The position numbers and the translations under genes were made by a program. A DNA stretch of 64,000 nt from Blasia pusilla (Eukaryota), in NCBI GenBank assembly GCA_050084515.1, contig CM114271.1, positions 7,688,001 to 7,752,000 of the forward strand, given 5' to 3'. The notes under the pieces are model-generated. The model did not search any database. It saw nothing but the letters and a program-made list of their open reading frames with translations, and had not been told where the DNA came from. Shown here one piece after another: positions 3,001 through 44,669 of this stretch. Positions within the stretch are counted from its first letter, which is position 1; the number at the start of each line of letters is the position of its first letter.

Positions 3001-4151
3001 GGGTTTAGGTTATAGATGGAGTTTGAATTCTATAAGATCTTTACCTTTGACAGAGCACCATAGTCGTTATGTGTTGGTGATGGTCAAATACTTCTCATAG
3101 TTGATAGAGTTGGTTGCATTACCTGACAAACCAAGGTAGGGAGTAGTGTATGCCTTGCTAGATCGAGTGTTGAGTCTTTATGGCGCACCAGATGAGGTGT
3201 TGACAGAATAGGATACGAAGTTTCGTAGGGAGTTTCAGGCCTTGTGTGACCATACGTTGATTGACTACCGCACCACTTTGCAAGATCATCTTGAGGCAGA
3301 TGGACTAGCTAAAAGGGTTGTGCATGTGATGAAGAAAGATTTATGCAAGTATGGCTTGTAGAGAGATCACCTAGGAGATTGGGACCTCCAGTTGCCATGG
3401 TTGGCGATGGGATACAGATTCAACAAACACACATCCTTAGTGCCTTTCTCACCGTATCTTTTGTTTTATGGCCGAAAGCGGGATTTACCTACGGCCATTC
3501 ATCAAGATTTTTATGAGGTATTAAACCTCAATGACCCTGATGTATGTATGTGAGCATGTTCTCAAAAAGCTAAGTTGTTTCAAACAGTGATGCCCATGGC
3601 ATTTGAGAACTTGGCGATTGCGCAACATCGGGATACATTGAGGTATGCGACTATTCAGGAAGGTGATTATTGACCAACTATCCGAATGTTTCATCACGGA
3701 GATTATGTCTACTTGCGAGAGACGTACCCACGACGTTGGATGTGACTGTAAGTCGCACTATCTTGAGAGTGCGTGATGTTTTGCCATTTCGTGTTTTCTT
3801 ATTTGAAGGACACGATAGTATGGTTTGGAAGGACCATGTTCGTAACTTTGCATCATGTTATCTTCCTATCATTGACAGTAAACTTGATCTTAACTTAGCA
3901 ATAGTTTGTGATGTATATTGACAATGTGTGATTCCTCCCGTGGTGAATCCACTTTGCTAGTCTATGATGGATATTTAAAGGATGGTATATGACATGTCTC
4001 ACAACACCTCTCACTAGGGTCCTTCACAGACGATAGATGTGCCCCAGATGTACATAGACTATGTAGTTATAAATTTCAACTTATATCTATGGCATGGATG
4101 ATAAGAAGACGACTAACAATGGGGTCACGTGAACACTCGACCTTTTTGCTC
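1..4151 (+). mobile_element. Copy A: degenerate Gypsy-DNMT-PHD retrotransposon fragment (end of gag, protease, DNMT, RNaseH part, integrase, decayed PHD); RT deleted
   Basis: Protease VLLDLGAQPLML ~686-720; DNMT VLDLFGGI ~1415, CWPCQGQS ~1680, YILENV ~1810; integrase remnants ~2800-3900. 4030-4151 matches the reverse complement of 30690-30815. Many stops; no terminal repeat visible. Confidence 0.88.
1405..1870 (+). pseudogene. C5 cytosine methyltransferase domain (copy A), with stops and internal deletion of motifs VIII-IX
   Basis: IQVLDLFGGISS (motif I), TIDLVIACWPCQG (IV), YILENV (VI) joined directly to LGQAIE (X). Confidence 0.85.
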
Positions 4152-5375
4152 CATAATATAGAATGGCTACTAAATCCTAATGTTTCATCATTCGAGGCCT
4201 CGATGGTCACCACTACCAAACCCAGTTCACCTTTCTAGAGCCTTCTACTCACAACTGCTAAGAGGACATAAAAAATACAACCAAGACAATTGAAATGGAG
4301 AAAGAAAGCTTCAAGCAATGGACTGCTAGGTCTACTTTAGCCTCCACTTCAAATATATGTACTTCCAACCATGAAACACGAATGTTTACCTAGTTTCATA
4401 GACGTACTTCTATGACTTGGACTACTTCAGGTAAATTTGAAACTACCAAATCAAAGTTGACCCTCAATGTTGAAGGTGAGTACAAAAACCTCTCATTTCA
4501 GATACTCCGACTGGCCTTCAGGGTTTAATCTTAACTACTCTGCAGTGCGGAATGGAGAGTACTGATGGTAAAATTCAGGCCAACGGAAGTCATGAGTGAG
4601 TGAGTTCTCAGGTACCATATGACACCACCATACCAACCACTCTACTGCAGGTGAAGAGTAAATGGCAAGTCGTACTCATGAGGCAGCTTTTGAAGATCTT
4701 GTACCAGCTCACCACCCAAAACTGCATGCTGAATGACCTCAAGTTCCTTCCCACGGAAAAGATAAATGATGACCTTTATATTAGACAAGTAAAGACCATC
4801 ACAATGGACATTCAATCAACAAAGTCGCCTTGGTGATTGTCATATCATTCGCAGTTTCGTGACATGTCTCCTTGAAAAGCTTACTGCCTACAGGTTCCTC
4901 ACAAAAGATGTGTGACCAAGGCTATAGCTAGCTGCGACTGGTTCAGCCCCTTCTGTGATGATTGACGTGGGAGTAGGAAAGCTCAAATAACTAACTAGTC
5001 TAGTACATGCTCATCCACCCACCACCAACTCCGACACCGATTATTTCACTCAATAATGGACAAAAGTATGGAAATGCGTGCATCACCAAGCCCATCCCCC
5101 CTGAATTTCTTGAAGGCACCGCTATGCTTGGATGACAGGGCCGGGAAAAAATCAGAACAAATGAGAGCATGAGCTTGGCTCTCCCAGAGGCAGTCATAAC
5201 CTTCCAACCCGTGAGAAGTAGCCGGCTCATGTGCTCCGATGGAAGATATAGCTACTGCTAGACAATGCTTCCTAAAGAGCAGCTCTGATACAACCTGTGG
5301 ATCATTAGGCCCCATAACGATTACAAAGTTTCTACATCTAACATATTTCTATCCACACCTGGAAACCATTTTTTC

Positions 5376-8300
5376 CTATAGATGATCTTGCGCCAACGAC
5401 TGGTCATAGTCACTGCGCCAGTAATTAACATCATTAAAGCTTGGGTTCCCGTCGACATCCTTAGTTCTGGGATTGAAGCCATCATCCTTAGAATTTTCAT
5501 GTGGCTGGATGGGAGCAGCTTCGCCCACAATTCCCTCTTTAATAGCCTTCTCCATCGCCTTGGCTGTCCCCTCTGCTTCCACCCCAATAAGTGGTGGGCC
5601 ACCAAACAAAGGAGTGGCTACTTCAACCACAGCATCTTGATGATTATCCGTATGCAATGTGGGCAGAGTGTCTGATACTGGGTCTTCATCAGGCTCATCA
5701 ACAACTTCAACTTGTACTGCACCCGGTTCTGAAGGAGGAAGGAAATCAACTTCTGAGCCCTCTTCCTCTGCTGTATGGGCTTCAAACACATCACTCTCCC
5801 CAAAAAGGTCCCGACCAGATGTTCCTTCCGAATCTGTGTTTTGTCTTAAACCTTCCCAATCGACAGTTCTCTCACCACGATCAAACAAAAACAAGTTGTC
5901 GGACAATCCGAATTTCTCCAGTTCAGTGGATATATCCTCCACTGATGTGATACTAGACTCCCTGGTAGAGTCTAAAACGGTATGTCCATTCTCAACTCGT
6001 GCTTCAAAACTAGGTCCCACAGCTCCTGGTGCATTCGCAGAAGTTGCAGTATCCACCAATTCCTCATCTTCGCCAACAACCACGTCATCATCACTGCTGC
6101 TCCCGCCACTGCTATTTGGTGGTGAAACAGCATTAGTGACTTGCTCATCTTCAATCCTTGGAGGTGGTGGGGATATCAGAAAATTGGGCAAGGGTTGTTT
6201 AGACCTATTGTCATCTTGAAAAGCAAACCAGTTTTTGTTGCCAAACATACTGTCTTTAGAACGAGCACTGCAGCAAGAGAACCCCAACCCAACCCCAACC
6301 CCCGCCGGGCCCAAAATCCCATTAGAACCTGATCGATTCAAAGCAGCAACTACCCTACTTCATTAGCAGATTGTTTAGCACAGATTGGAATTACCATGTA
6401 CAGGTGGCCCTCTCAAGTCCCGGATTCTAATCAATGTAGGTTTTATGGGTACACCTCAGTTCCGTAAACATTCCCTACCTCTTCAAAGAAATGGCCTATC
6501 TGAGGAAAATCCCATCCACCTTGCAAAATCTTACACTGGCAGAGATCACTACCAGAGCAAAGGTATTGGACAAGAACTGAATAGTCATTTACATGTACAG
6601 ATCCATGGACATTATGGACTAGTTATCCACACATGAGATTATGGACTCAGCGGAAGTGCAAAATACCTGTCCTGTTCATCATTTAAGCGCAATGAGGAGA
6701 TGACAACTTCGGCTGATTCATCATCAAAATAAACTTCCTGAAACCGCCGCAATGCATTTAGCAGATTACGACAGTAATCCAAGTGGCCTCAGGCAGTTGA
6801 CATTACTACCGTACCATGACAATCCTTCCTTTGGACCTAAGCTCCATTAACATTTTTCAAACTCATACAATCGGTCACACCATGTTTAACCACTATTACA
6901 CTCAAAACTTTCAATTGTGCACCTTGCCCATTTGTACAAAAAAGTATACTGATAAACAGAAGCTGGGGGAATGATAAGCAGGAAAAGTTGCACCACCTCA
7001 TCTCTTTCAAGGGAAGCATGTCCCTGCCATCCAGACAACAAAACTCAAGTTAGACATGCGCACTGGCTAGGGACACCGGATTCTCAGAAAAACTAACCAC
7101 TGAAGCCACTCCAATGAAGTCCAGATTTGAACCCATTTAGAAGCTCAACGAAATTTTAGATTTCCTTACAAATAAAACCCCATACTTGGTCTTCCTAATC
7201 CATTCCAGAAACTCCACACTACACAAGAAAAGTTAAACATTGTCCAGTGAGCTTACATACCTCATCACCATCCTCATTGTCAAACATTCCGTATCGATAT
7301 ACTTCTCCTGTCAGATTCCTTGCCATGGCTGAAATATCATAATCTCTTTCACGGAAGTCATCTTCGTCACTGTCCACAGGGCGCTCCTGTACAGCTGTTG
7401 GACGCCTGCATAAACTTGGAACTAAATATTAAAAACGTTTTCTTAGAAAAAAACAACAAAACTTGTAACCTTCACAAAATGGCAACGACTGATTCACATT
7501 ATGACTCCACACAAAGAACCAGAAAGGAGTTCTTAATCTCAGGAATATAATACATGCAGAACAATGAAATGCTCTCAGAATCATTGAAGCTGAGCTTTGA
7601 TCAGGACTACAACATCCATTCTTGAGAAATAAAATCGTCTCCAGAATTACTCCAACAAGTACAGTGCTTGCATAGGAAAAAAACAAAGCATATAGCCACG
7701 ATTGAGCAGATGAATGCTCTGGGATTTACATTGTCCCTCAAGAAAACTAACCACTATATATTATGAGATGGCAAGACACTTGGCAACAGAGATTCCAAGA
7801 CTCAAAGGAAGGAAGTCCTGGCAAGAGATCTTTAACTCATGAATATACTATATGCAAAAGGATGAGGTGTGCTCTTGATTGCTGAAGGAAATCTTAGATG
7901 AGGACCACAACATAGACTGAAATCCAGACATAAATTTCACAATCTCCTGCCACAACCAATGTCTTCCTCTTTAAATGCTTTCAGGGCTTGTTTCTGAAAG
8001 TCGTATAACTCCAAGAGTTGAGTGACCTTACCCGCATGTCCATTGATGGACGTTCTCTAGAACGTTACGATTTTGAAGAACGGTAGTCTGCCACTCATTC
8101 CATCTGGGATGGGCCTGTAACCAATCCGGACGAACGGTGTCATAACGAATTAGATTACCAAGGATTGCCAAGGAACCGACCCGCAATCGCCCACATCATT
8201 TCCTAAATGGACACTAGCCACTCTTGTCCATATGTTTGGCACATGATATCTTTCCATGGCCAGTTCCTACACAAATAAATGTCAGACCATATCATCCAAT

Positions 8301-18963: not shown

Positions 18964-19719
18964 TGTCGTGCGCATACATATCGCTACACAACATACATCG
19001 TTGGTCACATCTACACCACACAACATCGATCTTCCCCACACACAGGTAGATCCACACATGTACAAAAATAAACTCACATATATACATGGAGATCACACAA
19101 CAAAAATAAAGAGTAGTAAAAACGGCACACCCGGCCTAAAACTCCACTCCTCAATCTACATCGGCATATCAAGCCTCGTCCACCCTACGCTATCAAGGAA
19201 TCCGGCCGCTAGCACCCTAGTTCTATCTCACACAGATATAAGAGAGGTGCTCCAATGGCCCAACATGAGAAAGATGGCTTGGGAAAGCCATCTTCCTCCC
19301 TTATATAGGGTTGGGAAGAACCAAAAGGCTCTTCCCCTAAAAATAGCTATCCTCTTGGCAACCTACGCGCACAAGTTACCAGGGGCGGGTCACCTGGTCA
19401 ACAAGTCACCCGGCTGTGAAAGACCTCAACAAGAAAGTTGTCAGAAACGACGTTCTTGACACAATGGACCTACTCCCAACCTCATCTGACACCGTGGGAC
19501 AAAGTTACACTCAAGATAGTCCGCTAGCTCCTACGCCCTATCCACGATAGATCTCGGCCTATCGTCTACTCAGATATGACAGCTGTCGTGCACATACATA
19601 TCGCTATACAACATACATCGCTGGTCACATCTACACCACACAACACTGATCTTCCCCACCCATGGGTAGATCCACACATGTACAAAAATCAACTCATGCA
19701 TATACATGGAGATCACACA
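18964..19719 (-). repeat. 3' terminal repeat block of copy B: B1 (19719-19584), spacer GC, A2 (19581-19099), B2 (19098-18964)
   Basis: 19584-19719 is a direct repeat of 18964-19098. 19099-19581 matches ~27535-28012. The junction reads ...gatatgaca-gc-tgtcgtg... on the + strand. Confidence 0.85.
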
Positions 19720-19797
19720 ACCGCCCCCCTAGCTGGTAGTTGGATCCCCCTAACTTCAGATAGAAAATATCACATCTCTCTAACATAACCTACTATC

Positions 19798-19950
19798 CTA
19801 TACACATCTCAGACACATCCATCGTCCTGTGGGAACTACATCAAGAGGGGGGGTCAGACATGACATATGCCACCCTCGAGAACAACCATCACATACCAAC
19901 ATGGTGGCTGCACCCCTCGCAGATCCGCACAACATACACCTCAAGCTTGC
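19798..19950 (-). other. PHD finger (C4-H-C3) at integrase C-terminus, copy B
   Basis: [46 protein letters not shown] has canonical PHD spacing, including the conserved W before the last CxxC. Confidence 0.92.
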
Positions 19951-21903
19951 AAGTACCACTGCCAAGCTCGGATCCACAGTCTCGTCTACGTTCGAAAGAT
20001 AACATGGCGCACAATTGCGCACATAATCCTTCCAAACCATACCATCCAGTCCCTCCAACATGAGGACTCGGATCGGTAATACCTCACGCACATATAGGAT
20101 CGTGCGCCCTGCAGTGACATCTAGCTTTGTGGGTGCCGCCTACTATAAATACACGTAATCTCCAAGATGAAACCTCCTAATCCTCAATGAATGAATGAAT
20201 GATTGAATGAATTTTATACCTCAATGTATCTCTATGTTGAGCAATAGCTAAGTTCTCAAAGGCCATAGGCATAACTCTACGGAAAATCTCCGCCCTCTGA
20301 GAACACGCTTGTACCCACACATCTGGATCATCAAGATCAAACACCTCTGCCATATAGCTACAGGTAAACCTGCCTCTCTCCCAAAGAACAAAAAGTACGG
20401 TGAAAATGACGCCAAGGGTGCCTGCCGACTAAAGCGATAGCCCATAGCCAACCATGGCAACTCTAGGTCCCACTCCCTCAACTGTCCCTGCTGCAAGCCA
20501 TACTTGCGTAATCCTCTCTTCACCGTATGTACTACTCTCTCCGCTAACCCATCCGCCTCGGGATGATCTCTGGAAGTGGTGCGGTGATCTATCAACGCTT
20601 GATCACACAAGGCCTGAAACTCTCCCCTAAACTCGGTACCCTGGTCAGTCAACACCTCCGCCTGTGCACCAAAATGACTAAGCACACGATCTAGAAACGC
20701 ACAAGCTGTTCCCTCGCTTGCCTTGTCCACTAGTGCCACCAACTCTATCCACTTAGAGAAATGCTCCACCATGACCAACACATATCTATGATGACGCCTC
20801 GTCAATCGCAAGGGTCCCGCAAAGTCTAAACTCCACCGATAACCTAAATCCATTATCGGCAAAGGATGTAACTACGGAGTGGGAGCATTGAAGGATGCTT
20901 GCACTCCGTCACATACCATACATCTGGCCACAAACTGCTGTACCCCAGTATGCATGCCGCGCCACCAATATTGAACCAGGAGTAAGCCGTAAGTACGCTT
21001 TACTCCAAAATGCCCCAACTTCTCATGGGCATGTGCACTACACGTGCTCGCTGGGAAGGATGAGGTACCACTCGTATCCTACCATCTCCCCATACCCGCA
21101 AAATATGAGTCCCCTCCCACCTGAACCTCCTCGCTTGCTGTAGGATCCGATCCCGCTCCCTAGCACTCATTGTGCTCGCTATGACGCGAGTGCGCAAGAG
21201 CTCCACAACCTGCACGTCGTCATGGTTATCACAACCACCTATCGCATCCTCACTAACCTCCAGATCCAAAGACTCATCATCCAACCCCACCATTGGAGTC
21301 ATCACCTGCGACTGACCTATCATAGTCAACCAACAAAGATAGGCACATGCATGCCATCCGGGCACCATCTCCTCATCACTCTCTCCATGCCATCGAGCTC
21401 TTGTATCGTCTCTCTGGCTCGGACATGGGTTACGACTCAACCCATCCGCATCCTGGTTCAGCCAACTTGGCCTATGAACCACTTCAAACTCATACTCTTG
21501 TAGTAATAGAGCCCACATGGCAAGCTTTCCCGTAAGCTTGTCGGACTCCATCAACCACCTCAATGGCTGATGATCAATGATAAGTGTGAAAGGGTTGCCA
21601 AATAAATAGCACCTAAAATGTGCCACGGCCCACACTACAGCCAAGCACTCTCCCTCGTAAGAGCTGTACTTTGCCTCTCCAATGTTGTTTGATCGGCTCG
21701 CGTAAGCCACAATGAACTCCCTCTCCTCGTCATCTCTCTCTGAGTAAGCACTGCTCCTAGACCCAACATGCTTCAATCTGTATGTAACTGGAACGGGCGA
21801 CCCCTAACCGGTCTCTGTAAAATGGGTGAGGACATCAACCTATCCTTGAGCTCCTGAAATGCTCGCTCCTGATTATCTCCCCACAACCAAACCTGATCAA
21901 GTC

Positions 21904-21998
21904 TTGTCAACAAGGTCAAAGACCTTGTTGACAAAAAGTGGGGCTTATATTAGTGGGGATTCTTACCAAAATGGTAAGAATCCCCACTAATATAAGCC
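21904..21998. repeat. Two adjacent perfect hairpins (14-bp and 27-bp stems, 3-nt AAA loops)
   Basis: ttgtcaacaaggtc-aaa-gaccttgttgacaa (21904-21934); ggcttatattagtggggattcttacca-aaa-tggtaagaatccccactaatataagcc (21942-21998). Confidence 0.95.
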
Positions 21999-22169
21999 GT
22001 CTTCGCACTCTCTGCTCGAACGACGTCCCAAGAAGTCCATGGGTGCCTATCTCTCCTCGTCCCACCCCCAGGAAATGCCTATACAGACCCTATGGGAAAT
22101 GGTCCAACTCCTAGACGTGACGGCATGGATGACACTCGCATCCGCCTCAGCTTAGCCATACCTAGGTTG

Positions 22170-23530
22170 ACTATCCATGTGAGACAGTTGAGGTCCATCG
22201 CTTGCCCAAGCACCTATCTCCGGGATGTCTTTGTTGTGACCCTCATAACCAAACAACACCAAATAGGCGCCAAGCGGAACATCATAACTCAAGTGGACTC
22301 AGGCTGCGATGTTTGCGCTTTGGAGAGGCGTTTGGAAAGGTCTCTTGGAAAAGTCCAAGAGATGAAAACGCGGAACAAAGTTGTGTGTTTCATGCATTAG
22401 TGGTCGCGACCAGGAAATCTAGACCAAACGCGAGCCAAGACTTGAGATGAGTTGAGTCTTGGGAGGTTGGTTGCCAAAGAGGTGAGAACCAGTTTGGAAC
22501 ACAACTAGCGTTTGGGAGAATCTGACTGTGTTTAGGACCATAACGTTGAGTTCTAAGATGCGTTTGGGACAAATAAGGGCGCGTTGGAAATCTTATCTTG
22601 AGACGCTTCCAACGCACCAAATGTCTCAGCAAACGCATAAATACAGATTGAGATATTGGCCGAAAAAAATGTTGAGAGCAATCCGGTTGAGGGCCAATTG
22701 GAGAGGTCTGTTGTAGGCTCCTCCAATTCTCGGGTCACCTCATCCCAAATCATGCCTGGCCCTCCCTGACGAAAGGCATGGGATGTTGGGAAGCTCACCA
22801 ACGTAGGTAAGGCTGCCCTCAACTCCCCCACCCTATTGGCCATCGCCAACGGTGGTCTATCATCCCGCTTCACCACCTAAGATCGACGCCTTGAGCCCAA
22901 AATAGCATCTAGTATAAGATGTGGTATTCTCTGGACTCCATCGTATGCTCAACTCAGTACCTCTGATGGTATCAAGTTTGTCCACCATAATCGTGTATGA
23001 TGGGCGCGTGATCCAACTCTTGTTATATCTAACAACACAACAGGTCCCAACCATGACCTCACATGATGCACACTCGTCATCACACGTGCACGAGTGTCTC
23101 CCAACAACGGCACATTCTCCAAAATGTACGTCGGAGAACATGTCTGACTTTCCTGCAAGTGTTGTACTACTCGCAGCATCTCCCAAAACATCCATGACCT
23201 CGGATCTTGCAATCCAAACCCTCGGCTAGCTGATGAATGACCCTGACATGGCCATCCAACAATCACCAAATGAATGGTACCAACTCTATCTAGATCCTGC
23301 GCCCCCCCTAAAGAGATGTCGGCGGGTAGTGTATGTTGATATCCTCGTAATGCGGATACCGGCAACAACTCAGGATACCTCTGGACCATTCTCCCTAAGT
23401 GACGTAATGATACCCGCTACGTGGTCTCATCTCTCTCCACATAAAGGTACCGATCCATCCGTATGGCCGCCTACAATATTGTAGCCAATCCGCTGCTAAT
23501 CCCTCCGAAGATATCTACCACCCTAACACC
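22170..23530 (-). pseudogene. C5 cytosine methyltransferase domain (copy B), interrupted by an LTR fragment
   Basis: VVDIFGGISSG, IHLVIVGWPCQGHS, YILENV, GSRAHHTRLWWTNL, VLGQAMDLNCLTWI; insertion at ~22232-22706 replaces motif IX. Confidence 0.87.
22232..22706 (+). mobile_element. Partial LTR related to the solo LTR at 49853-51163, inserted in the copy B DNMT
   Basis: Starts tgttgtgaccctcataaccaaac (cf. tgtcgcgaccttcatgaccaaac at 49853); shared blocks gcggaacatca, tggtcgcgac, caagacttgaga, gcgtttgggac, gttgagggcca. Confidence 0.75.
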
Positions 23531-26500
23531 CTCCTCTGGACACTACCACACAACGGGTTTGGTATCCAGTGGGGTCAACGTCTCCACTCTAGGAGCCCGA
23601 TCGCCACCTGACTCTCGCTGCTCCGGGATAAAGGCATGACTCTACGCCTGCCCCACGAGGTCGTTGCCACTCCTCTATAGCTCTCGAGTCGTACCCCACA
23701 ATGGTGAAGAGGTCTCGCCAACATGGGTAGAGACACCCGCCATGGTCTGTCTCTCCGTGGGACTATCCGCTACTGGGACATCCTCCGCATGTGTTCCCCT
23801 CCAACAACTCTCTTGGCCTGCTAACACTACCTATGAAAGCTGCCAACGTGGTCATAGACTCGTCTCGTGCTCCACCACCTCATCCCGCAAACTGCACGGA
23901 TAATTGACTCATCCGCCCGTCACTTGACCGCCATCCTAGCCGATAAGCAACAATCTCCTCCCAGAAGTCAAGGATGAATCCTAGGGGATATAACATTGTA
24001 CTCCCCACCAATACATCGTATGACTCAGCTGGTGTCATAATCGCACGTGTGCGCACCATAGCACTATCCGTCGCATGCTCTGACTAGACTCTGACAACTA
24101 TCTCCTGTCGAGTCATATATTGCGTAGGTGACACGCCCCCAATCGAGGTTTGTATCTAGAAGGGACAAGTCTCAATGTCGGCCTTCCGTAACCACAACGC
24201 TAAACATGCCACCTTCTCTAACATCAAGGGTTGCCCTCCTGAATCAAGTAAGACACGTTGCGGGTGGTATACTGTCCCGGTCGGACTAACCAAGCGAAAT
24301 ACTCCAGCTTCGTTATCCAATAACACTACTCAAGGTGTCACCACTGCTCGCTCAAAGGCAAGTCGAGCTGGCATATCTACCAACTTTGCCGCCGCTGCAT
24401 GCCATGACTCTCTGGGGGACGTTCCGAGCATCGGCTCTGAGGGCAAGTCCACCACCTCCTCAACTACCTCCGAACAAGAAGTAGTCACCTCTCCACGCTC
24501 AATCAATGTGGCGGCCATCCGGAACACCTCAGCTGGTCCAACACCCAACGTCGCCAACTCTATGGCGGAAAATAGCGGAGTCTGACTCACTCTAATGGCC
24601 ACCTCCAACATTATGATCCACATTGACTCCACTCGAGCCGGCATAGCAGTTTTTACTCCAACTCCTCATGATGTCGACGTACTTGCATGAGCTATAGGCA
24701 CCGCTGGTCGTCGAGGCACCATCGATGGTGTGAGTAGTGCCTCCAACAATGTAAATGACTGTGGAATCCTGGCTTGCCGCCCATCGGTCCCCTCCGGTGG
24801 GTCAATCCCAACTCCACCTCTCAATGGCTCGGTACCTCTCGTAGCACCCCGAGTCACCACTGCAACTGCCTCAACCTGAGCTACACTACACATAAACCCC
24901 ATACTAGGAAGATCCTCACCCGGATCAAGATAAGAGGTAGAAGCTGGGGCCACACTAGCTGCTCGCGGCTGCGTGCCTTCCTTGAGCTGCATCTTCGTAA
25001 TGGCAGCAATCCTCTGCTCCAACTAATCGTTGCGTGAGAGAAGTGCCGGCTCTGATGCTCTTGCTCCATCTCCTCTGGCTGGTGGTGGTCCTCTATCACC
25101 ATGTACAGGAAGAACTCCCTGACCCCCTCCAAGACAACCACCCCAGGCCCTCGGCCTACCTCTGGACGTGCCTCTCGACGAAGGTCAAAACATGTATCCC
25201 TAGTGTGACCATATCTGTGGCAATAGTCACACTTGTATTATGGTGGGGCCATCCTATGTGGCTCTTGAGAAATCGGAGGCGCTCGTGGTCCTCCCATCTG
25301 TCCCTGCTGGGCAACATATGTAGGTACGGGTCATTGCCTCATAGGCTCACGGTACCCGCCCTCCTCTCTGGGCACACTGGCCAACTCCCGTGGTAATGGT
25401 GCTTGTTGTGGCACCTGTGGGATCACCGTCGCTCGTGGACCCGTAGACTCTCGAGAAAATCCAGCGGTCATTACCTCCTCCTCACTCATCTTGAGCTCAA
25501 TACGCTCAGACAACTCAAAGACCACCTTCAATGTGGGCTTTGTTGTGTGAATCAACACCTCATCTCGGACTCTCCTCCATAGTTTTTGGTCTAAAACCTC
25601 ATACCAATACTGGACTGACTGCACCTCAGTCACACCATACGTAGCAATGATGAGCCTCCTCATGCTCGTGAATGCCTCTCTCAGACTCTCACCTGATCAT
25701 CGCTGAAAATCCTTTAGACTCTTCAGCTTGCCGGTGTGTACGCCCTGGTAGCTCTTTCCCAACTGTCGGAAGAACTCCACTGTGGGATTGAAGCTGGGTG
25801 GCCCTCTACCACCAGAGGTCTCTGCTACATCGTCTGTCTTAGTGCCCTCCTCTCAATCTAGTCTCCAGACTGATGGTGTGGGTCTCTCTCCTCTCACGAT
25901 CCCATCATATACCTCCCGACCACTAGTGGACACATACCCTAGAGCCCAATACATCCTCCAAGAATTGATCTCTACTGAATACTGATTGAAACTCCATGTA
26001 ATCATCCATTGGAGGACCCTCCAAGTGCTGGAACAACCCCTTCCATGCCATGAAAGGGTTGAACCGTGTCGGGGTCCATATCTCTTGGAAGTCGCACCAC
26101 GTGTCGAACTCCCGGATGAAATCATATAAGTCGATGGTACCCATTGCACCCGAGAAACGATGCATGCCCCAATGGCCCATGTCATCCATCTCCTGCCAAG
26201 TGATACTGCCTTCGTCTGCAATCTCATCACCAGACCCAATGTCTAGTGATGTCGATCCAGTCACGGATGAATGTCGAGGTAGCTCCTCGTTGGTAACCCC
26301 TTGGTATCTCACTCCACTCCGTGTCACACCACTACCACTGCTCGCATTACCCCGTTCTTTCAAACCTTGGAAGAACGTCGTGATGACAATCCTGTCTCAC
26401 CCGCTCAAGCCCTCAGACTCACTGAGAGTCTCCCACACTCCTCACTAGCTCACCGATGCTAATGATAATCCTGTGATGGCACACCCGGCCTCACGCACAC

Positions 26501-27033
26501 TCAACACTCGGGCTCACCATGAGCCTCCCAACTGACTCACCTAACCTACCGACACTCTCGGGTCATACATGCGACCCCTACTCGGCAACCGCCATATATC
26601 CACCAACATGCTACACATGAAAAGAGTCTACACTTGTCACCATCACTCCACCCACCAGCATCAGCTCCTACCCAGTACCCAACACTCTCAAACACATAAG
26701 ATAAGTGCGAGAAAAGAGACTCGAATGGGTAATATGATCACGTCCACCAACCTATTGCATCGTCAACATCCACTCCATATGTGTGGCATGAAAACCTCCG
26801 TAGCACAACCATCTCCTCGCACACCCGTCAAACCTCCCGTCAGCATCGGCATGTGTGTCCCCATCTCAACCCTCACAACTCCCCCGAGGGGGGGGGGGAC
26901 TAAATGCAGGAGAGGGGAGGGTAAGGGATAGGCCGCGGCTTTGTCTGCCTCCGCCTCCGGCTCGGAGTCACCTGCAACCTAGCCGCACTTGCAATCCTAG
27001 CCGTGGCGGCTATAAACTCTCGACATGTTCTCC

Positions 27034-27318
27034 CTACACTCCCGTTGTGCGCCGTTCTCTCGACGCTCCAACACTCTACGTTGCACCAGAGCGCTCGATA
27101 TTTTCTCTCTACACTCCCGTTGTGCGCCGTTCTCTCGACGCTCCAACACTCTGCGTTGCACCTAAGCGCTCGATATTTTCTCTCTACACTCCCGTTGTGC
27201 GCCGTTCTCTCGACGCTCCAACACTCTGCGTTGCACCTGAGCGCTCGATGTTTTCTCTCTACACTCCCGTTGTGCGCCGTTCTCTCGACGCTCCAACACT
27301 CTGCGTTGCACCTGAGCA
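27034..27318. repeat. 75-bp tandem repeat (~3.8 units) in the 5' leader of copy B
   Basis: Unit ctacactcccgttgtgcgccgttctctcgacgctccaacactctgcgttgcacctgagcgctcgatattttctct starts at ~27034, 27109, 27184 and 27259. Confidence 0.95.
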
Positions 27319-27534
27319 CTCCTGCGTGACCCCCACTCTGTTATTGTCCCTCGTCAACCTGCACCAGCAAAATCTGAGAAAAACAGACAGCGCTTCCGCC
27401 CACGGCCTTCTAAACAGAAAAATGACCAATGAAACGCCAACCAGCGTCTCTTGGGGCTTCCCACCGAGGCAACTCGCTTGCCTACCTACAAACAAGGAAT
27501 TTCCACCAGCCCCTTGACATCTGTCTCATTTAAA

Positions 27535-28012
27535 AATAAAGGGTAGCAAATATGGCACATCCGGTCTAAAACTCCACTCTTCAATCTACATCGGCATATC
27601 AAGCCTCGTCCAACCTGCTCTATCAAGGAATCCGGCCACTTGCACCCTAATCCTATCTCACACACATACAAGAGAGTTGCTCCAACGGCCCAACATGAGA
27701 AAGATGGCTTGGGAAAGCCATCTTCCTCCCTAATATAGGGTTGGGAAGAGCCAAAAGGCTCTTTCCCCTAAAAATAGCTATCCTCTTGGTAACCTATGCG
27801 CACAAGTTACCAGGGGAGGATGACGTGGTCAACAAGTCACCCGGTTGTGAAAGACCTCGATAGGAAAGTTGTCAGAAACAACGTTCTTGACACAATGGAC
27901 TTATCTTCAACCTCATCCGACATTGTGGGACAAAGTTACACTCAAGATAGTCCACTGGCTCCTACGCCCTATCCATGATAGATCTCGACCTATCGGCTAC
28001 TCAGATGTGATA
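27535..28012 (-). repeat. 5' terminal repeat A1 of copy B (A only, no B module)
   Basis: Direct repeat of 19099-19581; homology stops at the aaaaataaag run and the ~135-bp B module is absent. Confidence 0.85.
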
Positions 28013-29868: not shown

Positions 29869-30488
29869 TGTCACATCTGAGTAGCCGATAGGCCGAGATC
29901 TATCGTGGATAGGGCGTAGGAGCCGACGGATTATCTTGAATGTAACTTTGTCCCACAGTGTCGAATGAGGTTGAGGATTGGTCCAATGTGTCAGGAACGT
30001 CGTTTCTGACGACTTTCATGCTGAGGTCTTTTACAGCCGGGGGACTTGTTTACCAAGTCACCCGCCCATGGTAACCTGTGTGCGTAGGTTACCAAAGGAA
30101 GGGCTATTTTTAGGGGAAGAGCCTTTTGGCCCTTCCCAACCCTATATAAGAGAGGAAGATGGCTTTTCTAAGCCACCTTTCTCATGTTGGGCCGTTGGAG
30201 CACCTCCCTTGTATGTGTGTGAGCTAGGACTAGGATGCTAGCGTCCGGATTCCTTGATAGCACAGGGTGGACGATGCTCGATATGCCGATGTAGATTGAG
30301 GAGTGGAGTTTTAGGCCGGGTGTGCCATTTTTACTACTCTTTATTTTTGTTGTGTGATCTCTATGTATATGTATGAGTTGATTTTTTTGTACATGTATGG
30401 ATGGACCCGTGTGTGGGGAAGATCGGTGTTGTGTGGTGTAGATGTGACAAGCGATGTATGTTGTGTAGCGATATGTATGCGCACGACA
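29869..30488 (+). mobile_element. Solo A+B repeat (family X, as in copy B) with 4-bp TSD TCGT
   Basis: Reverse complement of 18964-19581; termini tgtcac...cacgaca; TCGT at 29865-29868 and 30489-30492. Confidence 0.9.
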
Positions 30489-30776: not shown

Positions 30777-32017
30777 CTAGTATCTCCTATATGTACATCT
30801 GGGACACATCCATCGTCCCCGAGGAACCCTAGTGAGAGGTGGCGTCAGACATGCCATATGCCAACCTCTCGAACATCCATCACAAACTAGCAACGTGGCC
30901 GCACCACAAGCAGAACCACACAACATACAACGCAAGCCTGCAAGAACTACTGATGAGCTTGAATCTTCTATACCATTAATATTAGGAAGGTGACATGGCG
31001 CACAATTACGCACATGGTCCTTCCATACCATACCATCGCGTCCCTCCAAGAAGATAACACCGGATGGCAAAACGTCACGCTCTCTCAGGATAGTGCGCCC
31101 TACAATCACATCCAACGTCGACGGTGCTGTCTCCTCGAAGTAGACATAATCTCCTTGATGAAACCTCCAGATAGTTGGTCGATAACCACCACACCGAATA
31201 GTCGCATATCTCAACGTATCCCGATGTTGCGCAATTTCCAAGTTGTCGAACGCCATAAGCATTATTCTCCGAAACAACTCAACCCTCTCAAAACATGCTC
31301 GCATCCATACATCTGGGTCATCAAGGTCCTGCATCTTACCAACATCTCGACGAATGGCTGAAGGTAAATCTGGCTCTCAGCCATAAAGTAGCAAGTACGA
31401 TGAAAAAGACGCTAAAGATGTCTGCCTGCTGAATCAGTATTCCATCGCCAACCATGGCAATGGAGGTCCCAATCTCCTAGGTGACCTCTCTGCAAGCCAT
31501 ACATGCGTAAACCCCTCTTCATCGTCTGCATAACTCTCTCCGCTAATCCATCTGCCTCGGGATGATCTCGCGAAGTGGTGTAGTGGTCGATCAACGCCTG
31601 ATCACACAATGCTTGGAACTCACCGCGAAACTCGGTACCCTGGTCTCTCAACACCTCAGCCGGTGCGCCATAATGACTCAACACTCTGTCAAGGAAGGCA
31701 TAAGCTACTCCCTCACTTGCTTTGTCAAGCAATGCAACCAACTCGATCCACTTTGAGAAGTGCTCGACCATCACCAACACATAACGACTATGATGCTCTG
31801 TCAAAGGCAAAGGTCCTGAAAAATCCAAACTCCATCTATACCCTAAGCCCATGATCGTTAATGGATGCAACTGTGGAGTCGGAGCATTGAACGATGCTCG
31901 AACCCGATCACACACCATGCACGTGGCAACAAACTGCTGAACGTCACTCTGCATGCCTTGCGACCAATACTGAATCTGGAGCAAGCGGTACGTCCGCTTC
32001 ATCCCAAAGTGACCCAA
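30777..32017 (-). pseudogene. DDE integrase with N-terminal HHCC and C-terminal PHD finger (copy C)
   Basis: GHFGMKRT...[76 protein letters not shown]. Confidence 0.92.
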
Positions 32018-32857
32018 CTCCTCGTAGGCATGTTGTACTAGTCATGCTCTCTGCAAAGGATGCGGCACTACGCGTATTGTGCCATCCTCCCAAACCCTCA
32101 AAATATGTGTCCCCTCCCAACGGAACCGTATGGCCCGCTGAAGGATCCGATCTCGCTCTCTAGCACCCACGGTGCTCGCAATCTGCCAATCCAGAGGTAC
32201 TCCAAGACTACTCCATCATTATGAATATCTCGGCCATCTGTCGTCTCCTCACTGGTCTCGGGATCCAAGGACTCTCCACTAGACCTCGCCATCAAAGTCT
32301 CCACACTCTGGCTCTCCATAGCCAACATGCCTAAATAGGCTGACCCGTGCCATCCTGGCACTGACTCCTCATCACTCTCTCCATGCCATCGAGCTCTAGT
32401 CGCATCTCGCTGACTCGAGCATGGGTTACAACTCAACCCATCTGCATCCTGGTTGAGCTTCCCAAGTCTATGTACCACTTGAAAATCATACTCCTGCAAC
32501 AACAGAGCCCATCTCGCAAGCTTCCCAGTAAACTTGTCGGACTCCATCAACAACTTTAGTGGTTGATGATGAGTGATGATGGTAAAGGGATTGCCGAATA
32601 AGTAACACCTGAAATGCGCGACAACCCACACTGCAGCCAAGCACTCACCCTCATACGAGTTGTACTTCGCCTCTGTAGCGTTGTTCGAGCGGCTAGCGTA
32701 AGCCACCATGAACTCTCTACCCTCATCATCATGTTGGGTGAGCACCGCTCCAAGCCCCAAAATGCTCCAATCTGTGTGAAATTGGAAAGGACCCCCCCCT
32801 GATCGGTCTCCTCAAGATGGGCGTGGACATCAACCTATCCTTGAGCAAATAAAATGC

Positions 32858-33862
32858 TCACTCATGCTCATCCCCCCAGTGCCACTCGTGATCCACCTTG
32901 GTCAGCAAGGTCAGCGGCTTCGCAATTGGACTAAATCCCTTGACATACCGCCGATAGAAGTTCGCCAATCCCATGAATGCGCGAACACGGCTCACATTTG
33001 TAGGGCGTGGAATGCGTGAGATAGCCTCTACCTTTGTCAACTGAACATCAAGGCCCCTTGGGTATATCATATGAACCAAGTACTCAATCTGGTGGTAAAA
33101 GAACTTGCACTTGCGTGGATGTAGATTCAGCCCATGTAATTGCAATCGTTGAAACATCTCCTCTAGATGTCGTTCATGCTCCTCAACCGTGGGGCTAAAG
33201 ACTACGATGTCATCAATATAACACCTAGCAAAATCCACACCAGCCAAGATCCTATCCATGACCCTTTGAAACTCATCCGGGGCATTCTTTAACCCAAATG
33301 GTAAGAACCGCCACTGGTACAAACAATCCTTCCCATGAGGATCGATGCTCGAAAATGCCGTCTTCTGCCTGTCCTCCAATCTGATAGGCAGCTGATGGTA
33401 TCCGACTCGCAAATCCAATGAACTGAAAACCTTTGCATGACCAATCGCATCAAAGATCTCCTCAGGGGTGGGCATGGCATACCTATCGGACTTCGTCTGC
33501 CGATTGATAGGTCGGTAATCCCCACACATCCGCCTATCCGTCCACTTGCCATGCACATCCTTCTTGGCGGGCATGAAAGTGGCACATGCATACTCCCCAT
33601 GCGACATCTCCACTAGTCCTGCTCCAACCAAGTCCTGGCTCCTACTCTGAATCAGAGCCCTCTCCATATCAGTGTATCTGTAGGATGGTCGAAAGATCGG
33701 CGTATCAGTCGACAACTCAATGCGGATCCCCGGTCCCTTCAGCATACCCAAATCCTCCATGCTAAACGCAAAGCAACTCCTATAACTCCTAAGGAACTGA
33801 TGTATTCGATGTTGCTCTCCTCCTGTCAACTTAGGGCCCATATCTGGCTCACAAGTCTCCAT
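32858..33862 (-). CDS. Ty3/Gypsy reverse transcriptase (334-aa open segment, copy C)
   Basis: RRMCGDYRPIN, DRYAMP, FSSLDLRVGYHQ, LPFGLKNAP, YIDDIVVFS, KCKF, VRAFMGLANFYRRYV. Confidence 0.93.
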   Translation of the reverse strand: METCEPDMGPKLTGGEQHRIHQFLRSYRSCFAFSMEDLGMLKGPGIRIELSTDTPIFRPSYRYTDMERALIQSRSQDLVGAGLVEMSHGEYACATFMPAKKDVHGKWTDRRMCGDYRPINRQTKSDRYAMPTPEEIFDAIGHAKVFSSLDLRVGYHQLPIRLEDRQKTAFSSIDPHGKDCLYQWRFLPFGLKNAPDEFQRVMDRILAGVDFARCYIDDIVVFSPTVEEHERHLEEMFQRLQLHGLNLHPRKCKFFYHQIEYLVHMIYPRGLDVQLTKVEAISRIPRPTNVSRVRAFMGLANFYRRYVKGFSPIAKPLTLLTKVDHEWHWGDEHE

Positions 33863-34209
33863 CGTGACTACCGTAGGACTCTCCGGCGCGGATATCGGTG
33901 GTTGTTATGGTGCAACCCTGTCTCGAACAACAATACTTGACCGCTCTCCTGTAGCCAACTTCAAAATCTGATCTCCTCCACATGTAGTGCCCGGAACTAT
34001 GCTCGATGTTGTGGCTATCATCTCCTGGCATACTTGCAAAACATCCCAAGAAGTCCAAGGGTGTCTCTCTCGATCTCCCCTGGTGTGTAAATCTCCTTGG
34101 GTCTCGCCCCCCGCCATTGCCTCCACCATCTCGGTAGGCATGGGGCTCACCAACGCAACCGCTGTGATCTGTCACGATCTCAGCCGACGCTGCTAAGCCA
34201 CTCCGAAGC

Positions 34210-35160
34210 TAAAGATCCATGTCAAGTTGTTGAGGTCCATCGCTTGACCCAAGACATGGCGTCGTGATGCCTCTGATACTGACGGGATTGCCGTCACTCC
34301 CGTGGGAAATCCCATCGCCCGCTCTCTCTCTTGTCGACGTTGGGCTCCACCAACCTCTGAACGTGGTCATCCCAAACCAAGCCAAGACCGGCCTCCTTGT
34401 ATGCATACGGAGCGGGAAAACGCACAAACGTGGGAAAGGCTGCCCTCGTCTTGCCTACTCTATTGACCACAGTCAACGGTGGTCAATCATCATGCCTCAC
34501 TGCCTGAGAGCGACGACCTGGATCTAGAATGGAATCCACTAACAAATGGGAGGGGCACTCCACTCTCGCATACGACTTCCGTAACACCGCATGGGGCACC
34601 AAGTTGGTCCACCATAAACGCAGGCGATGGGCTCTAGAACCTACACTTGCCGCATTCAAGAACACTACTGGGCCGATCGAGGCACACACCTGATGAGCAC
34701 TCGTCACCACTCGTGACCTGGAGTCTCCTAAGATCGGCACATTCTCCACAATGTAGGTTGGAGAACAAGACCGATGCTCCTGCAACTGCCATAAGACCCT
34801 CAACATCTCCCAAAACAACCTGGACCGAGTGTCAGCCAACCCGCTGCCTCGTCCAGCACTCGATTGGCCCTCACATGGCCAACCGGCAATGACCAAATTA
34901 ATGGTGCCTAAACGGTCTAAGTCCTGCGCCCCCAACAACGAAATATCCCTCGGTAGTGAACTCTGGTATCCCTGTACCGCGGACGCAGACAATAAGTCGG
35001 GAAAACGTAGGCGTAATTGCGCCACATGTCATAGCGAGATGCGCCTCGCAACATCATCACTCTCCACATACAGGTACTATTGTACTCGCACTCCTGCCTG
35101 TAAAACAACAACTAACCCGGTGCCAATCCCTCCAAAGAGATCTAACACTCGAATATCCTC
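34210..35160 (-). pseudogene. DNMT3-like C5 cytosine methyltransferase domain (copy C), all main motifs present, with stops and frameshifts
   Basis: I: RVLDLFGGIGTG; II-like: YLYVE; IV: INLVIAGWPCEG; V-like: GLADTRSRLFWE; VI: YIVENV; VIII: GSRAHRLRLWWTNL; IX: ERAMGFP; X: HVLGQAMD. Confidence 0.92.
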
Positions 35161-38100
35161 CTCCGCAATACACCACACAATGGGTGTGGTATCCAAGGAT
35201 GTCATCGTAGCACTCCCTGCTACCTCGGGTTCCTCAGACCTGTCATGCTTCTGTGCAAACGCCTCACTCCACGCGATTTGCACGTGCTCATCTTCCAATC
35301 ATCAAAGCTCCTCAATCGAGCCCCACAGCGGCACCTCTCCTCCACGGAATGATGCGGCTACCATAACACTCCTCTCCATAGAAATTTCAGGAACGGGAGT
35401 ATCCTCTGCATGGACATGTCCCTCAATCAAATCAGTAGGCCAAGTGATGGCACTGCTAAATGCTGCTAAGGTCGCCATCTCTCCTGGCCGTTGCTCGATC
35501 ATTGCACATGTGAATCGAATGGATAATGACCTAAGGCGCCCATCACCTTACTGCCATCTTGGTCTGTAGGACGTTGACTCTTCCCTGTAGTCCAAGGAAA
35601 ACCCCATCGGGTATAACACTGTTCCACCAACCAAGACGTCCTACGACTCTGCATCAGTCACTATCGCCTTGGCTTGCACCACCGACTCATCTGTAGGATA
35701 TCCCGGGCGAATCCTCACCACGACCTCCTATCGGGTGATATACTATGTGGTACTTGCTCCACCCAAGGATGTCTGTATCCGGAATGGACAACGCTCCACA
35801 TCAGCTCTCGTCAAACCCAATCCTTTGAATGACGCTTTCCCCAACATCAGGGGTTTCGCTCCTGAATCCAACAAGACACGTTGCAGACTAAAAGCTCTAC
35901 CTCCGGGACTCACCAATTGGAAGACCTCTCCTCAATTATCCAGCAATACAACAATAGTCCTTCCGATGTTATGACGTTGGGGGTACGCCTCGGCGGGCGT
36001 ACCCCCAACGTCATAACATCGGAAGCAGAAAATAAAGGAGCGCGATACACAATGGTGGCCGCCCCAACAACGTGCTCGACACATGCCCCTCCTGAGCATC
36101 AACAATAGGAGTCGTTGTACTTGCTTCTCCCATCACCCTCCGTGCTTGCACACCTACAATGTCACCAACTCTCAAGGAACTCTGATCAAGACCCATCGAT
36201 GGGGTCCTCATCACCTCGAACAACGTGAAAGATTGAGGAAGCCTAGTCTGTTTCTTGGCTTCCCCTCACTGTGGATCCAACTCTACGGCTACTCCACGTG
36301 TCACAATTGCAGCGGCCTCCATCCAGGCAACCCCGCACATCCAACCAGGATCCTCCATATCTCTGGCTGCTCCATATGATGTCAATGCCATGGATCCGGC
36401 GTCGGGTAATCTCAATGCCATAACAACAATCTGCTTCTAGCTGATGTATCTGAGCAGCCATCCTAGCCTCACGCCCGGCATCTCCCTCGACGTGTCTAAG
36501 TGGTACGACTCTACCTCCTCCACGCGCAGCTCCACCACCATGTTGGGCAACTCCAGCTCCTCGTCCCCCAACGGGACCACCTGGTGCACAATCTCTAGGC
36601 CTACCCGGACCGGGTACTCGTTCTGGTGCCCTCTCTGGCCCTCGGTCCGGATGTAACTCACGATGTAAAATGAAACACCTGGCGCGTGTATGACCATACC
36701 TTTGACAATAGTCACACTGATAACATCCTGATGCAGCACCATCTCCTCCTCCATGTTGAGGCACACGTCCATGACCCTGACGAGTGCAATCGTACTGATG
36801 ATGGGCTCCACCACATGACCAACAAGTAAAAGTAGACGGCTACTATTGAGCCGCATATGAAGGCGTAGGTCTCTGTGGCACGGCCTCCCGATATCGTCCT
36901 TGAGCTCGTGGTGCCACAGTCGACCTATCTCGGAGTCCACGTTGCTGCACAGGTAGTGCAGCCAATCGTGACTACTCTCGCCCAGAACCCATGGTGGCTA
37001 CGCTCTCCTCCGCCATGATGCGCTTAATGTTCTCGGGGGTCCTAAAAACATCTCTCAACGTAGGGGAGGTGTTCATAAGAAGCACCCCCTCCCGCAGCCG
37101 TGTCCGTAGGGTCCAGTCTAGCATCGCGTACCATGACTAGATAGCCTGAGCCTCTATCATCCCCTGAGTGACGTTGATCAACCGGCGCAAGCGAGTGTAA
37201 GCCTCACGCAAACTCTCACCCGGGCGCCTCTGGAAGTCGTGGATGCTCCACAAGTTCTCCGTCCGTACTCCTTGGTAGCTCGCCCTCAACTCAACAAAGA
37301 ACTCAACCACATGGTTGAACCTGGGATGAACCCAACTAGACGGTGCAACAGCTCTCGTATAAGTGACCCCTCCTAAAACGTCATAAGTGGAAGAGGAATT
37401 AGCCTCTCCTGACTCCTCCTCCTCATCTGGGAATGGCTCCGTCCATGACACATAATGTGGGTCATAGTAGAGCCTCCATGCCTCGATCTCACATGCATAT
37501 CTTTGAGAGAACTCATGGTAATCCTCCATGGGCGCCCCCTCTAAATGCTAGAACATACCGTTCCATGCTGTAAACGGGTTAAACTCTCTAGAGTTTTTGG
37601 CCTGTTGGGAGTTGCACCAACTCCTAAACTCTCTTTTGAAATCGTGAAACTCAATCGTGCCTGCTGCATCTGAAAACCTACATGGTCCTCTACCCCAATC
37701 GTCCATCTCGTACGCCCAACTAGTAGGACCACTCACAATGTGTGGCGATGTGCTCACAAAATCCTCTACATGCTCCCCCTCGTCTGAAGACCAAACTTAG
37801 ATAAAAAGAGATTGAGGTGGTCTCTCACATGGAGACCCTCAAAACCTTGCACCACTTCGGGTAAATCCTCAAGAGCTATTCTCAGGTATACTACCTCGCC
37901 TCTCAAAATCCTGAAAGGATGGCGTGATGGCCCTCGTGCCCCTCTCACACGATCACTCTCAACCGTGTGAGTAATCCCTCAATCACTCATCCCAAATATA
38001 CGGCACGCAATCTACACTCTCCCTCCCCGAGACCTGTAACGTGCGGCAACAAGCGGCGTGGTGCAGCAAATCGACCAGGCTATCATCTCATTGAAAATCT

Positions 38101-44660: not shown

Positions 44661-44669
44661 GATCACCCG

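What the first reader, a model, noticed from the sequence alone, without database searches (positions are those of the whole stretch)
19798..19950. PHD finger fused to the integrase C-terminus, pairing a chromatin reader with a methylation writer
Seen: clean C4HC3 PHD fingers end the integrase in copies B and C (~30790-30935), with a decayed version in A (~3910-4055). Known: chromoviruses place a chromodomain at this position to guide targeting; many PHD fingers read the H3 tail (H3K4 state), and DNMT3 enzymes use a PHD-like ADD domain for this. Inference: the element may choose targets by histone state and add DNA methylation, a self-contained epigenetic module.
Basis: partly seen in the sequence, partly recalled or inferred. 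Interest (0 to 1): 0.7.

Follow-up and report, generated by a model that had tools for sequence, protein, structure and literature searches.

The report
PHD-tipped, DNMT3-carrying Gypsy retrotransposon
The stretch is a real histone-reading zinc finger at the tip of the integrase of a dead copy of a very abundant plant jumping gene that also carries a DNA methyltransferase; the two probably work in separate proteins, and the oddest trait of the family is how its ends are built.

Summary
Confirmed: a C4HC3 PHD at 19804-19938 (-) in copy B and 30795-30929 in C (Pfam PHD E 4e-11, 2e-10); decayed in A. In B and C decay has cut it from the integrase core, but 8 of 20 other copies keep core-to-PHD in one open frame. 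The family has over 1,000 insertions here, and INT-PHD relatives occur in liverworts, mosses, charophytes and chlorophytes. The PHD resembles unmodified-H3 readers: no aromatic cage, A1/R2 pocket kept, K4 acid lost. 'One module' is weak: the DNMT3-like domain ends ORF1, behind a conserved TAG-CAA-CCA leaky stop and about 1,040 residues from the PHD. The element works like KnitGypsy-Dnmt3 (A-ORF-B-A-B repeats). Not in the papers I searched: self-priming, att ends stored as an internal CA-NN-TG junction, 4-bp TSDs and an A|B joint apparently remade at each insertion. This points to integration of an end-joined or end-extended cDNA. Binding, targeting and methylation are untested. The scan noted the PHD+DNMT pairing before in two other genomes.

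The parts
19804..19938 (-). PHD finger (C4HC3) of copy B, the finding
19948..20430 (-). Integrase C-terminal region (GPY/F-type helix, SH3-like part; labels recalled) of B, broken near 20140-20250 by stops and a short-repeat insertion
20464..21033 (-). Integrase H2C2 + DDE core of B
   Evidence: Pfam rve E 1.5e-14
21195..21802 (-). RNase H of B; RT upstream of it is deleted and replaced by unrelated DNA
22859..23416 (-). DNMT3-like domain of B (part matched)
   Evidence: PF00145 E 7e-8
18964..28012 (-). Whole element B, A1-internal-B1-NN-A2-B2, 4-bp TSD TCAA
27532..28012 (-). Repeat A1 (5' end of B); no tRNA-type PBS after it, but a tract complementary to a site inside A
19722..19731 (-). Polypurine tract directly before B1
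19584..19721 (-). Repeat B1, ending GACA
19577..19588 (.). Internal att junction GACA-GC-TGTC (palindrome) between B1 and A2
19102..19581 (-). Repeat A2, with TATA-like box at about 19309 and the putative self-primer about 30 nt downstream
18964..19101 (-). Repeat B2 (3' end of B)
30795..30929 (-). PHD finger of copy C
31415..33904 (-). RT, RNase H and integrase core of C (frameshifted pieces); stop at 33905-33907 is the DNMT/RT boundary stop
34486..35028 (-). DNMT3-like domain of C (part)
   Evidence: PF00145 E 1.5e-9
29869..30488 (+). Solo A|B unit of the B type, TSD ACGA, inserted in the tip of C's B1
3977..4054 (+). Decayed PHD remnant of copy A

Best explanation
A dead copy of a green-lineage Ty3/Gypsy group of the KnitGypsy-Dnmt3 kind. 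ORF1 makes gag-protease-DNMT3-like protein; occasional readthrough of a TAG-CAA-CCA stop adds RT-RNase H-integrase-PHD. After protease processing the PHD stays on the integrase and tethers it, weakly, to the free N-terminus of histone H3 (A1, R2; K4 unmethylated preferred because there is no cage), as a chromodomain does in chromoviruses, steering copies away from H3K4me3 promoters. The DNMT, made at gag-like levels, most likely acts in the particle on the element's own cDNA rather than being guided by the PHD. Shown: domains, order, frames, conservation, sense transcription of the family. Inferred: readthrough, processing, H3 binding, targeting, DNMT substrate.
For: PHD calls. In-frame fusion in 8 of 20 copies and in 64 of 80 metagenome loci a PHD follows the core. 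56 of 71 homologues keep the full C4HC3+W pattern; H-2 is Gly in 54 of 56 and never Trp; Asp after Cys3 in 52 of 56. The best PDB hits include KDM5A/B PHD1, PHF21A, CHD4, AIRE, ATXR5, BAZ2 and UHRF1; no ING, BPTF or TAF3 among the 60 shown of 87. An ungapped match to KDM5B PHD1 (63) keeps the equivalents of KDM5A L309/P331/G333/W335 (A1), D312 (R2) and V330 (T3), residues from 10.1101/715474. B vs L013 PHD: 19/13/38% change at codon positions 1/2/3 (72). TAG CAA CCA in 17 of 17 copies plus window A and D; TAG CAA TCA and TAG CAG TTA in two distant relatives, one with a clean 1369-aa + 1047-aa ORF pair; UAG-CAR-YYA is the TMV signal (PMC3159437, 86). DNMT3A is the best solved match, E 4e-11. 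Stranded RNA reads cover gag to PHD, about 15-40 times more on the sense side in the PHD bin.
Against: The acid that contacts H3K4 in KDM5A (E305) is present in only 1 of 12 near homologues against 25 of 43 distant ones, and D315 and D292 equivalents are also mostly absent in near homologues; these losses lower affinity in KDM5A, so binding may be weak or altered. Several relatives have no stop between DNMT and RT (L165, L166, L206; K. nitens P0154) or a TAG with an imperfect context (CAA CCC/CCT). No insertion-site or chromatin data exist here. Every sampled copy of this genome is broken somewhere.
Confidence: 0.62

Rival explanations
1. First reader's module: PHD and DNMT act together (in the readthrough polyprotein or integration complex), so that the PHD reads H3K4me0 and the DNMT methylates the new insertion or its surroundings, like ADD plus DNMT3.
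For: Both domains co-occur over the whole clade: DNMT upstream in 17 of 20 own copies and 22 of 28 metagenome loci with enough upstream DNA. In algal-type relatives the DNMT sits between RNase H and integrase, in one ORF with the PHD. An H3K4me0 reader is the class that guides DNMT3 (recalled).
Against: Here a stop and about 1,040 residues (RT, RH, INT) lie between them; a protease motif is present. DNMT position varies (before RT or after RH) while the PHD stays on INT. INT-PHD proteins without a detected DNMT exist.
Confidence: 0.18
2. In this bryophyte-type branch the PHD has drifted from histone reading and serves as a structural or nucleic-acid/partner-binding end of the integrase, for example in handling the internal att junction.
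For: Loss of the loop acids and a neutral-to-basic loop in the near homologues.
Against: The A1 pocket (P, G, W) and R2 aspartate stay conserved (11-12 of 12 near homologues); these serve H3 binding in KDM5A.
Confidence: 0.15
3. A host PHD exon captured by chance next to a dead element, or a chance Cys pattern.
For: B and C are frame-broken.
Against: Same place in at least 150 scored genome hits, in homologues from liverworts to chlorophytes, intronless and under codon constraint.
Confidence: 0.02

Closest known systems
KnitGypsy-Dnmt3 of Klebsormidium nitens (de Mendoza et al. 2018, PMC5890265; passages and peer-review file read, Fig. 4c and the main supplement not viewable)
   Same: Ty3/Gypsy domains with a Dnmt3-like domain and DIRS-like A-coding-B-A-B repeats. 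A K. nitens protein (KFL_009030040, P0154) has the same order PR-DNMT-RT-RH-INT and a homologous integrase tail; another (GAQ92421.1) has INT-PHD.
   Different: Text never mentions a PHD (0 hits), though the figure may draw one. The DNMT is in the Pol ORF there, behind a leaky stop here. Few copies in an alga there, over 1,000 in a land-plant-type genome here. My RT tree does not join P0154 to this family with support. Priming, TSD and junction mechanism were not in the passages read.
Gypsy-7a_cRei of Chlamydomonas (Craig et al., 10.1101/2022.06.16.496473, section 17 read)
   Same: Gypsy polyprotein with a PHD finger, proposed to help targeted insertion; intergenic insertions 2.6-fold enriched.
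   Different: No methyltransferase listed; the legend lists PHD before INT; no sequence comparison was possible.
Chromoviruses and EpiLTRs (Neumann 2019 PMC6317226 passages; bioRxiv 10.64898/2026.05.21.726589 passages)
   Same: Histone reader at the integrase end; EpiLTRs pair a chromodomain with DAM and DNMT domains. Tcn1/Tf1-type chromoviruses self-prime.
   Different: Chromodomain rather than PHD; EpiLTR DNMT is DNMT4-related; ordinary LTRs. Neumann 2019 has 0 hits for PHD or methyltransferase.
TE-PHD fusions in general (Grau-Bove et al., 10.1101/2021.11.30.470311 passages; de Mendoza 2019 PMC6673714 passages; Ginger1 PMC2836005 passages)
   Same: PHD and Chromo are the commonest chromatin domains fused to TEs.
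   Different: No PHD+DNMT3 Gypsy clade is named in the passages read; their supplement (bioRxiv) was closed and may list such proteins.
Unmodified-H3 PHD readers: KDM5A/B PHD1, BHC80, AIRE, ATXR5
   Same: No cage; A1, R2 and T3 pocket residues kept.
   Different: K4- and R8-contacting acids (E305, D292, D315 equivalents) mostly absent in the near branch.

Membership tests
PHD finger (PF00628) | C4HC3 ligands and score above Pfam cut-off | tested here: met
   43.1 and 41.2 bits vs 24; 8 ligands
H3K4me3-reader PHDs | Aromatic cage (Trp two before the His; position recalled) | tested here: not met
   Gly in 54 of 56, Trp in 0 of 56
Unmodified-H3 reader PHDs | A1 pocket and R2 aspartate | tested here: met
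Unmodified-H3 reader PHDs | Acidic K4 contact (E305/D292 equivalents) | tested here: not met
   1 of 12 near homologues each; E305 in 25 of 43 distant ones
Unmodified-H3 reader PHDs | Measured H3 binding | not testable with these tools
   needs peptide assay
Ty3/Gypsy | Order gag-PR-RT-RH-INT with DDE integrase and TSD | tested here: met
   exact 4-bp TSD in 9 of 13 copies with both ends located
Ty3/Gypsy | Two complete LTRs, TG..CA | tested here: not met
   A-int-B-A-B instead; element ends are TGTC..GACA
Chromovirus | Chromodomain at INT end, or RT within the chromovirus clade | tested here: not met
   PHD instead; 7 own chromodomain elements form a separate branch (support 100), root unknown
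KnitGypsy-Dnmt3 / Gypsy-DNMT3 | Dnmt3-like domain with catalytic motifs | tested here: met
   DNMT3A best hit; PC motif 14 of 20, ENV 14 of 20 copies
KnitGypsy-Dnmt3 / Gypsy-DNMT3 | A-coding-B-A-B repeats with Gypsy domains | tested here: met
KnitGypsy-Dnmt3 / Gypsy-DNMT3 | DNMT in the same ORF as RT | tested here: not met
   same frame, but a conserved TAG between them; some relatives lack the stop
KnitGypsy-Dnmt3 / Gypsy-DNMT3 | RT monophyly with the K. nitens element | tested here: inconclusive
   quick tree only; P0154 in its own long-branch clade (55)
DIRS/Ngaro/PAT (split direct repeats) | Tyrosine recombinase, no TSD (latter recalled) | tested here: not met
   rve integrase and 4-bp TSD
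Phygy / Selgy (REXdb) | RT-RH-INT clade; NCGN target for Phygy | tested here: inconclusive
   no REXdb sequences available; none of the 9 exact TSDs reads NCGN, CpG decay possible (34, 18)

The most novel reading that the evidence does not exclude
A green-lineage-wide retrotransposon group that replicates by a route not described for DDE elements in the papers I found: self-primed RT gives a linear cDNA with repeats B-NN-A that lacks att ends; its ends are joined (circle, or RT end-to-end jump), and the PHD-tipped integrase opens the internal CA-NN-TG palindrome and inserts A-int-B-A-B with a 4-bp TSD, at H3K4-unmethylated chromatin, with cDNA pre-methylated by a gag-level DNMT3.
Probability: 0.45. 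Interest if true: 0.78.

Novelty: new variant of a known kind. Interest (0 to 1): 0.5.

Why it matters
The PHD itself is an expected kind of add-on. What matters is the carrier: an abundant, transcribed TE group with a de novo-type methyltransferase in land-plant (bryophyte-type) genomes, which LTR-pair-based catalogues such as REXdb would probably miss because it has no two full LTRs. Its Marchantia relatives are annotated as hypothetical host genes, so counts of DNMT3 and PHD genes there may include TE copies, and Marchantia's chromatin maps make the targeting idea testable. If the end-joining reading holds, it is a natural case of a DDE integrase using a circle-junction-like site as its normal substrate.

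Tried and rejected
Complex prediction of a natural PHD (L013) with the host's H3 1-30 and zinc: score 0.29, under the mark of 0.34, no verdict; not used as evidence. RT tree (42 rows, quick method only, rooted at midpoint): places the family with Marchantia and Coleochaete but cannot test one origin of all PHD elements or the link to K. nitens. Run search listed no holder on record as RNA; the three raw RNA runs laid came by species label, one study, and their identity with the window's organism is not shown. Repeat-pair mutation spectrum (41 changes in 1,535 sites, 30 transitions; 12 CG, 3 CHG, 14 CHH against 48/23/290 sites in one copy) fits ordinary host methylation and cannot separate host from element DNMT. 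Self-targeting: several fetched loci are nested in the same family, but with so abundant a family and no annotation there is no null; rejected as evidence. Symmetric circle cutting predicts an A|B-NN-A-int-B form; seen in 0 of 30 joint loci and 0 of 23 5' ends, so a plain symmetric 2-repeat circle is not enough. Literature: searches for PHD+Gypsy+cytosine methyltransferase, LTR+PHD domain (20), Chlamydomonas, liverwort/Klebsormidium, plant homeodomain, CARYYA+retrotransposon (41, 0 papers), Marchantia and split direct repeats+Gypsy showed no paper on this group in land plants or its end mechanism; listings only for most, open-licence library only. REM1 and Gao 2008 were not read. Scan notes near this place and by sequence: none.

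Full report
Observation. The window is a nest of decayed copies of one retrotransposon group. At the given place, on the minus strand, copy B has a complete C4HC3 finger at 19938-19804, Pfam PHD E 4.3e-11. Copy C has one at 30929-30795, E 1.7e-10. Copy A keeps only a remnant at 3977-4054. In B and C the finger is no longer in frame with the DDE core, and B has lost RT, so the window alone does not prove the fusion.

The fusion is real. The window lies in a 390-Mb assembly. The INT-tail+PHD query gave 14,024 first-look candidates; the 150 scored all match, the 149 others at 76-82% identity and nearly all with stops. Exact end patterns of the C-type subfamily occur 1,052 and 1,054 times, a lower bound on insertions. 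Of 20 copies fetched (mostly chosen for long open frames), 8 run from the first DDE motif to the last PHD cysteine without a stop, and 17 have the DNMT upstream of RT. A search of longer proteins gave 71 homologues, among them Marchantia, Calypogeia, Sphagnum, Coleochaete (a transcript), Klebsormidium, Cymbomonas and Haematococcus; 64 of 80 metagenome loci show a PHD after the core. The nearest named relatives are liverworts; the host is inferred to be a bryophyte from this alone. Between subfamilies B and C the PHD changes at 19/13/38% of codon positions 1/2/3, against 10/7/41% for the core, so it was under constraint.

What the finger can read. The solved relatives include KDM5A/B PHD1, PHF21A, CHD4, AIRE, ATXR5, BAZ2 and UHRF1, with no ING, BPTF or TAF3 among the 60 shown of 87. 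The cage position is Gly in 54 of 56 full-pattern homologues and never Trp. By the ungapped match to KDM5B PHD1 and the residue roles in 10.1101/715474 (passages), the A1 pocket, the R2 aspartate and the T3 valine are kept. The K4-contacting glutamate is kept in 25 of 43 distant homologues but 1 of 12 near ones. The prediction is a reader of the free H3 N-terminus that disfavours K4me3, weaker in this branch. That K4-unmethylated chromatin is mostly non-promoter DNA in plants is recalled. Binding itself was not shown.

The methyltransferase. It is DNMT3-like (DNMT3A E 4e-11, DRM2 2e-4, HaeIII 7e-3), with PC and ENV motifs each in 14 of 20 decayed copies. Protease and DNMT share one frame (693 aa in L021). 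Before RT stands TAG CAA CCA in 17 of 17 copies that hold the boundary, and in window copies A and D; C has TAA. Two distant relatives have TAG CAA TCA and TAG CAG TTA, one as the only stop between ORFs of 1,369 and 1,047 aa. This fits the TMV signal UAG-CAR-YYA (PMC3159437, passages). Against generality: six relatives read TAG CAA CCC/CCT, three have no stop, and others are decayed; K. nitens P0154 has none. So in this family DNMT would be made with gag, and INT-PHD only by readthrough, about 1,040 residues away. In algal-type relatives the DNMT lies between RNase H and integrase. The PHD travels with the integrase, not with the DNMT, which argues against an ADD-like unit.

Expression. Three raw RNA runs of one study (same species label as weak holders; identity with the window's organism not shown) put about 4,500-4,900 of 10-12 million records on gag-to-PHD of one copy, mostly 90-95% alike, so from many copies. 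In the PHD bin first mates lie 129/154/120 deep on one strand against 7/4/7 on the other, which is sense under the usual library orientation (not calibrated on a host gene).

The ends. Element B spans 18964-28012 as A1-internal-B1-GC-A2-B2 with TSD TCAA. Exact 4-bp TSDs flank 9 of 13 fetched copies with both ends located; two differ by one base and two do not match. Ends read TGTC..GACA, and the same two ends sit head to tail inside, as GACA-NN-TGTC; the spacer is 2 nt in 99 of the first 100 listed of 454 matches, with variable letters (my count). B1 starts right after the polypurine tract. After A1 there is no tRNA-type site, but a tract whose exact complement (13 nt or more in 21 of 23 loci) lies inside A; a relative at 52% identity has the same layout with a different 15-nt pair about 30 nt after a TATA box. 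This is the Tf1/Tcn1 self-priming pattern (Neumann 2019, passages). The A2|B2 joint varies: 32 of the first 100 listed of 1,052 carry extra letters, 28 of them a prefix of that tract (1 to 24 nt) and a few G or AG like PPT remnants (my count; L025 has a longer PPT-like remnant). The 22 single-A cases could be inherited; the nested series is harder to explain so. Inference: ordinary RT gives linear B-NN-A...B-NN-A; its two ends are joined, and the integrase opens the left internal junction. The mirror product was not seen (0 of 30 and 0 of 23), which favours an asymmetric route such as an RT end-to-end jump over a symmetric circle; this is unexplained. One copy is A-int-B with a TSD (L022), and solo A|B units with TSD occur (3 exact of 30).

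Comparison. De Mendoza 2018 (passages; Fig. 4c and main supplement not seen) reports a Gypsy with Dnmt3 and DIRS-like repeats in K. nitens and no PHD in the text; its authors expect the DNMT to act in cis on cDNA (peer-review file). PHDs on Gypsy and other TEs are known, and reader+DNMT pairs are known as EpiLTRs. So each part has precedent. The element works like KnitGypsy-Dnmt3; strict membership is open because the single-ORF feature is not met and the RT tree is inconclusive. My searches found no account of the group in land plants, its readthrough, self-priming or end-joining. Two earlier scan notes on other genomes reached the same PHD+DNMT reading; they are not independent evidence.

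Verdict. Observation confirmed; interpretation partly supported; new variant of a known kind; interest 0.5, carried more by the family's end anatomy and spread than by the PHD.

Noticed in passing
window 29869-30488 (+): A solo A|B unit of the B type inserted within the last bases of copy C's B1, i.e. in the att junction of another copy (TSD ACGA); single case.
   Followed up: partly
window 27013-27387: 75-bp tandem repeat (about 4 copies) in the 5' leader of element B.
   Followed up: no
window 21950-22740: RT of copy B is replaced by unrelated DNA between DNMT and RNase H.
   Followed up: partly
window 33135-37807 (-) and 39255-47415 (+): Copies C and D lie head to head at 86-89% identity; D stops inside the integrase core, with other DNA (gag-like ORF 43212-44445) nested in it.
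   Followed up: no
window 54802-59977: A Copia-type element (gag_2, Pol_BBD at 57650-58282) between 96% identical repeats, with an inverted copy of the repeat at 56898-57579.
   Followed up: no
window 5376-6359 (-): 327-aa acidic, low-complexity ORF without Pfam hit.
   Followed up: no
P0020, P0041, P0049, P0149, P0155, P0156, P0160: Relatives with DNMT between RNase H and integrase in which my pattern found no GWPCQ motif; some also have a G-patch or Tudor-like domain and 100-400 extra residues after the PHD.
   Followed up: no
P0002, P0004, P0125-P0135 (Marchantia), P0067 (Cymbomonas): Copies of this group are annotated as hypothetical host genes, one as 'Methyl-CpG-binding domain-containing protein 9'.
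   Followed up: no
L105, L110 (own genome): PPT-B-NN-A-primer site-internal arrangement, i.e. tandem elements sharing one B-A repeat.
   Followed up: no
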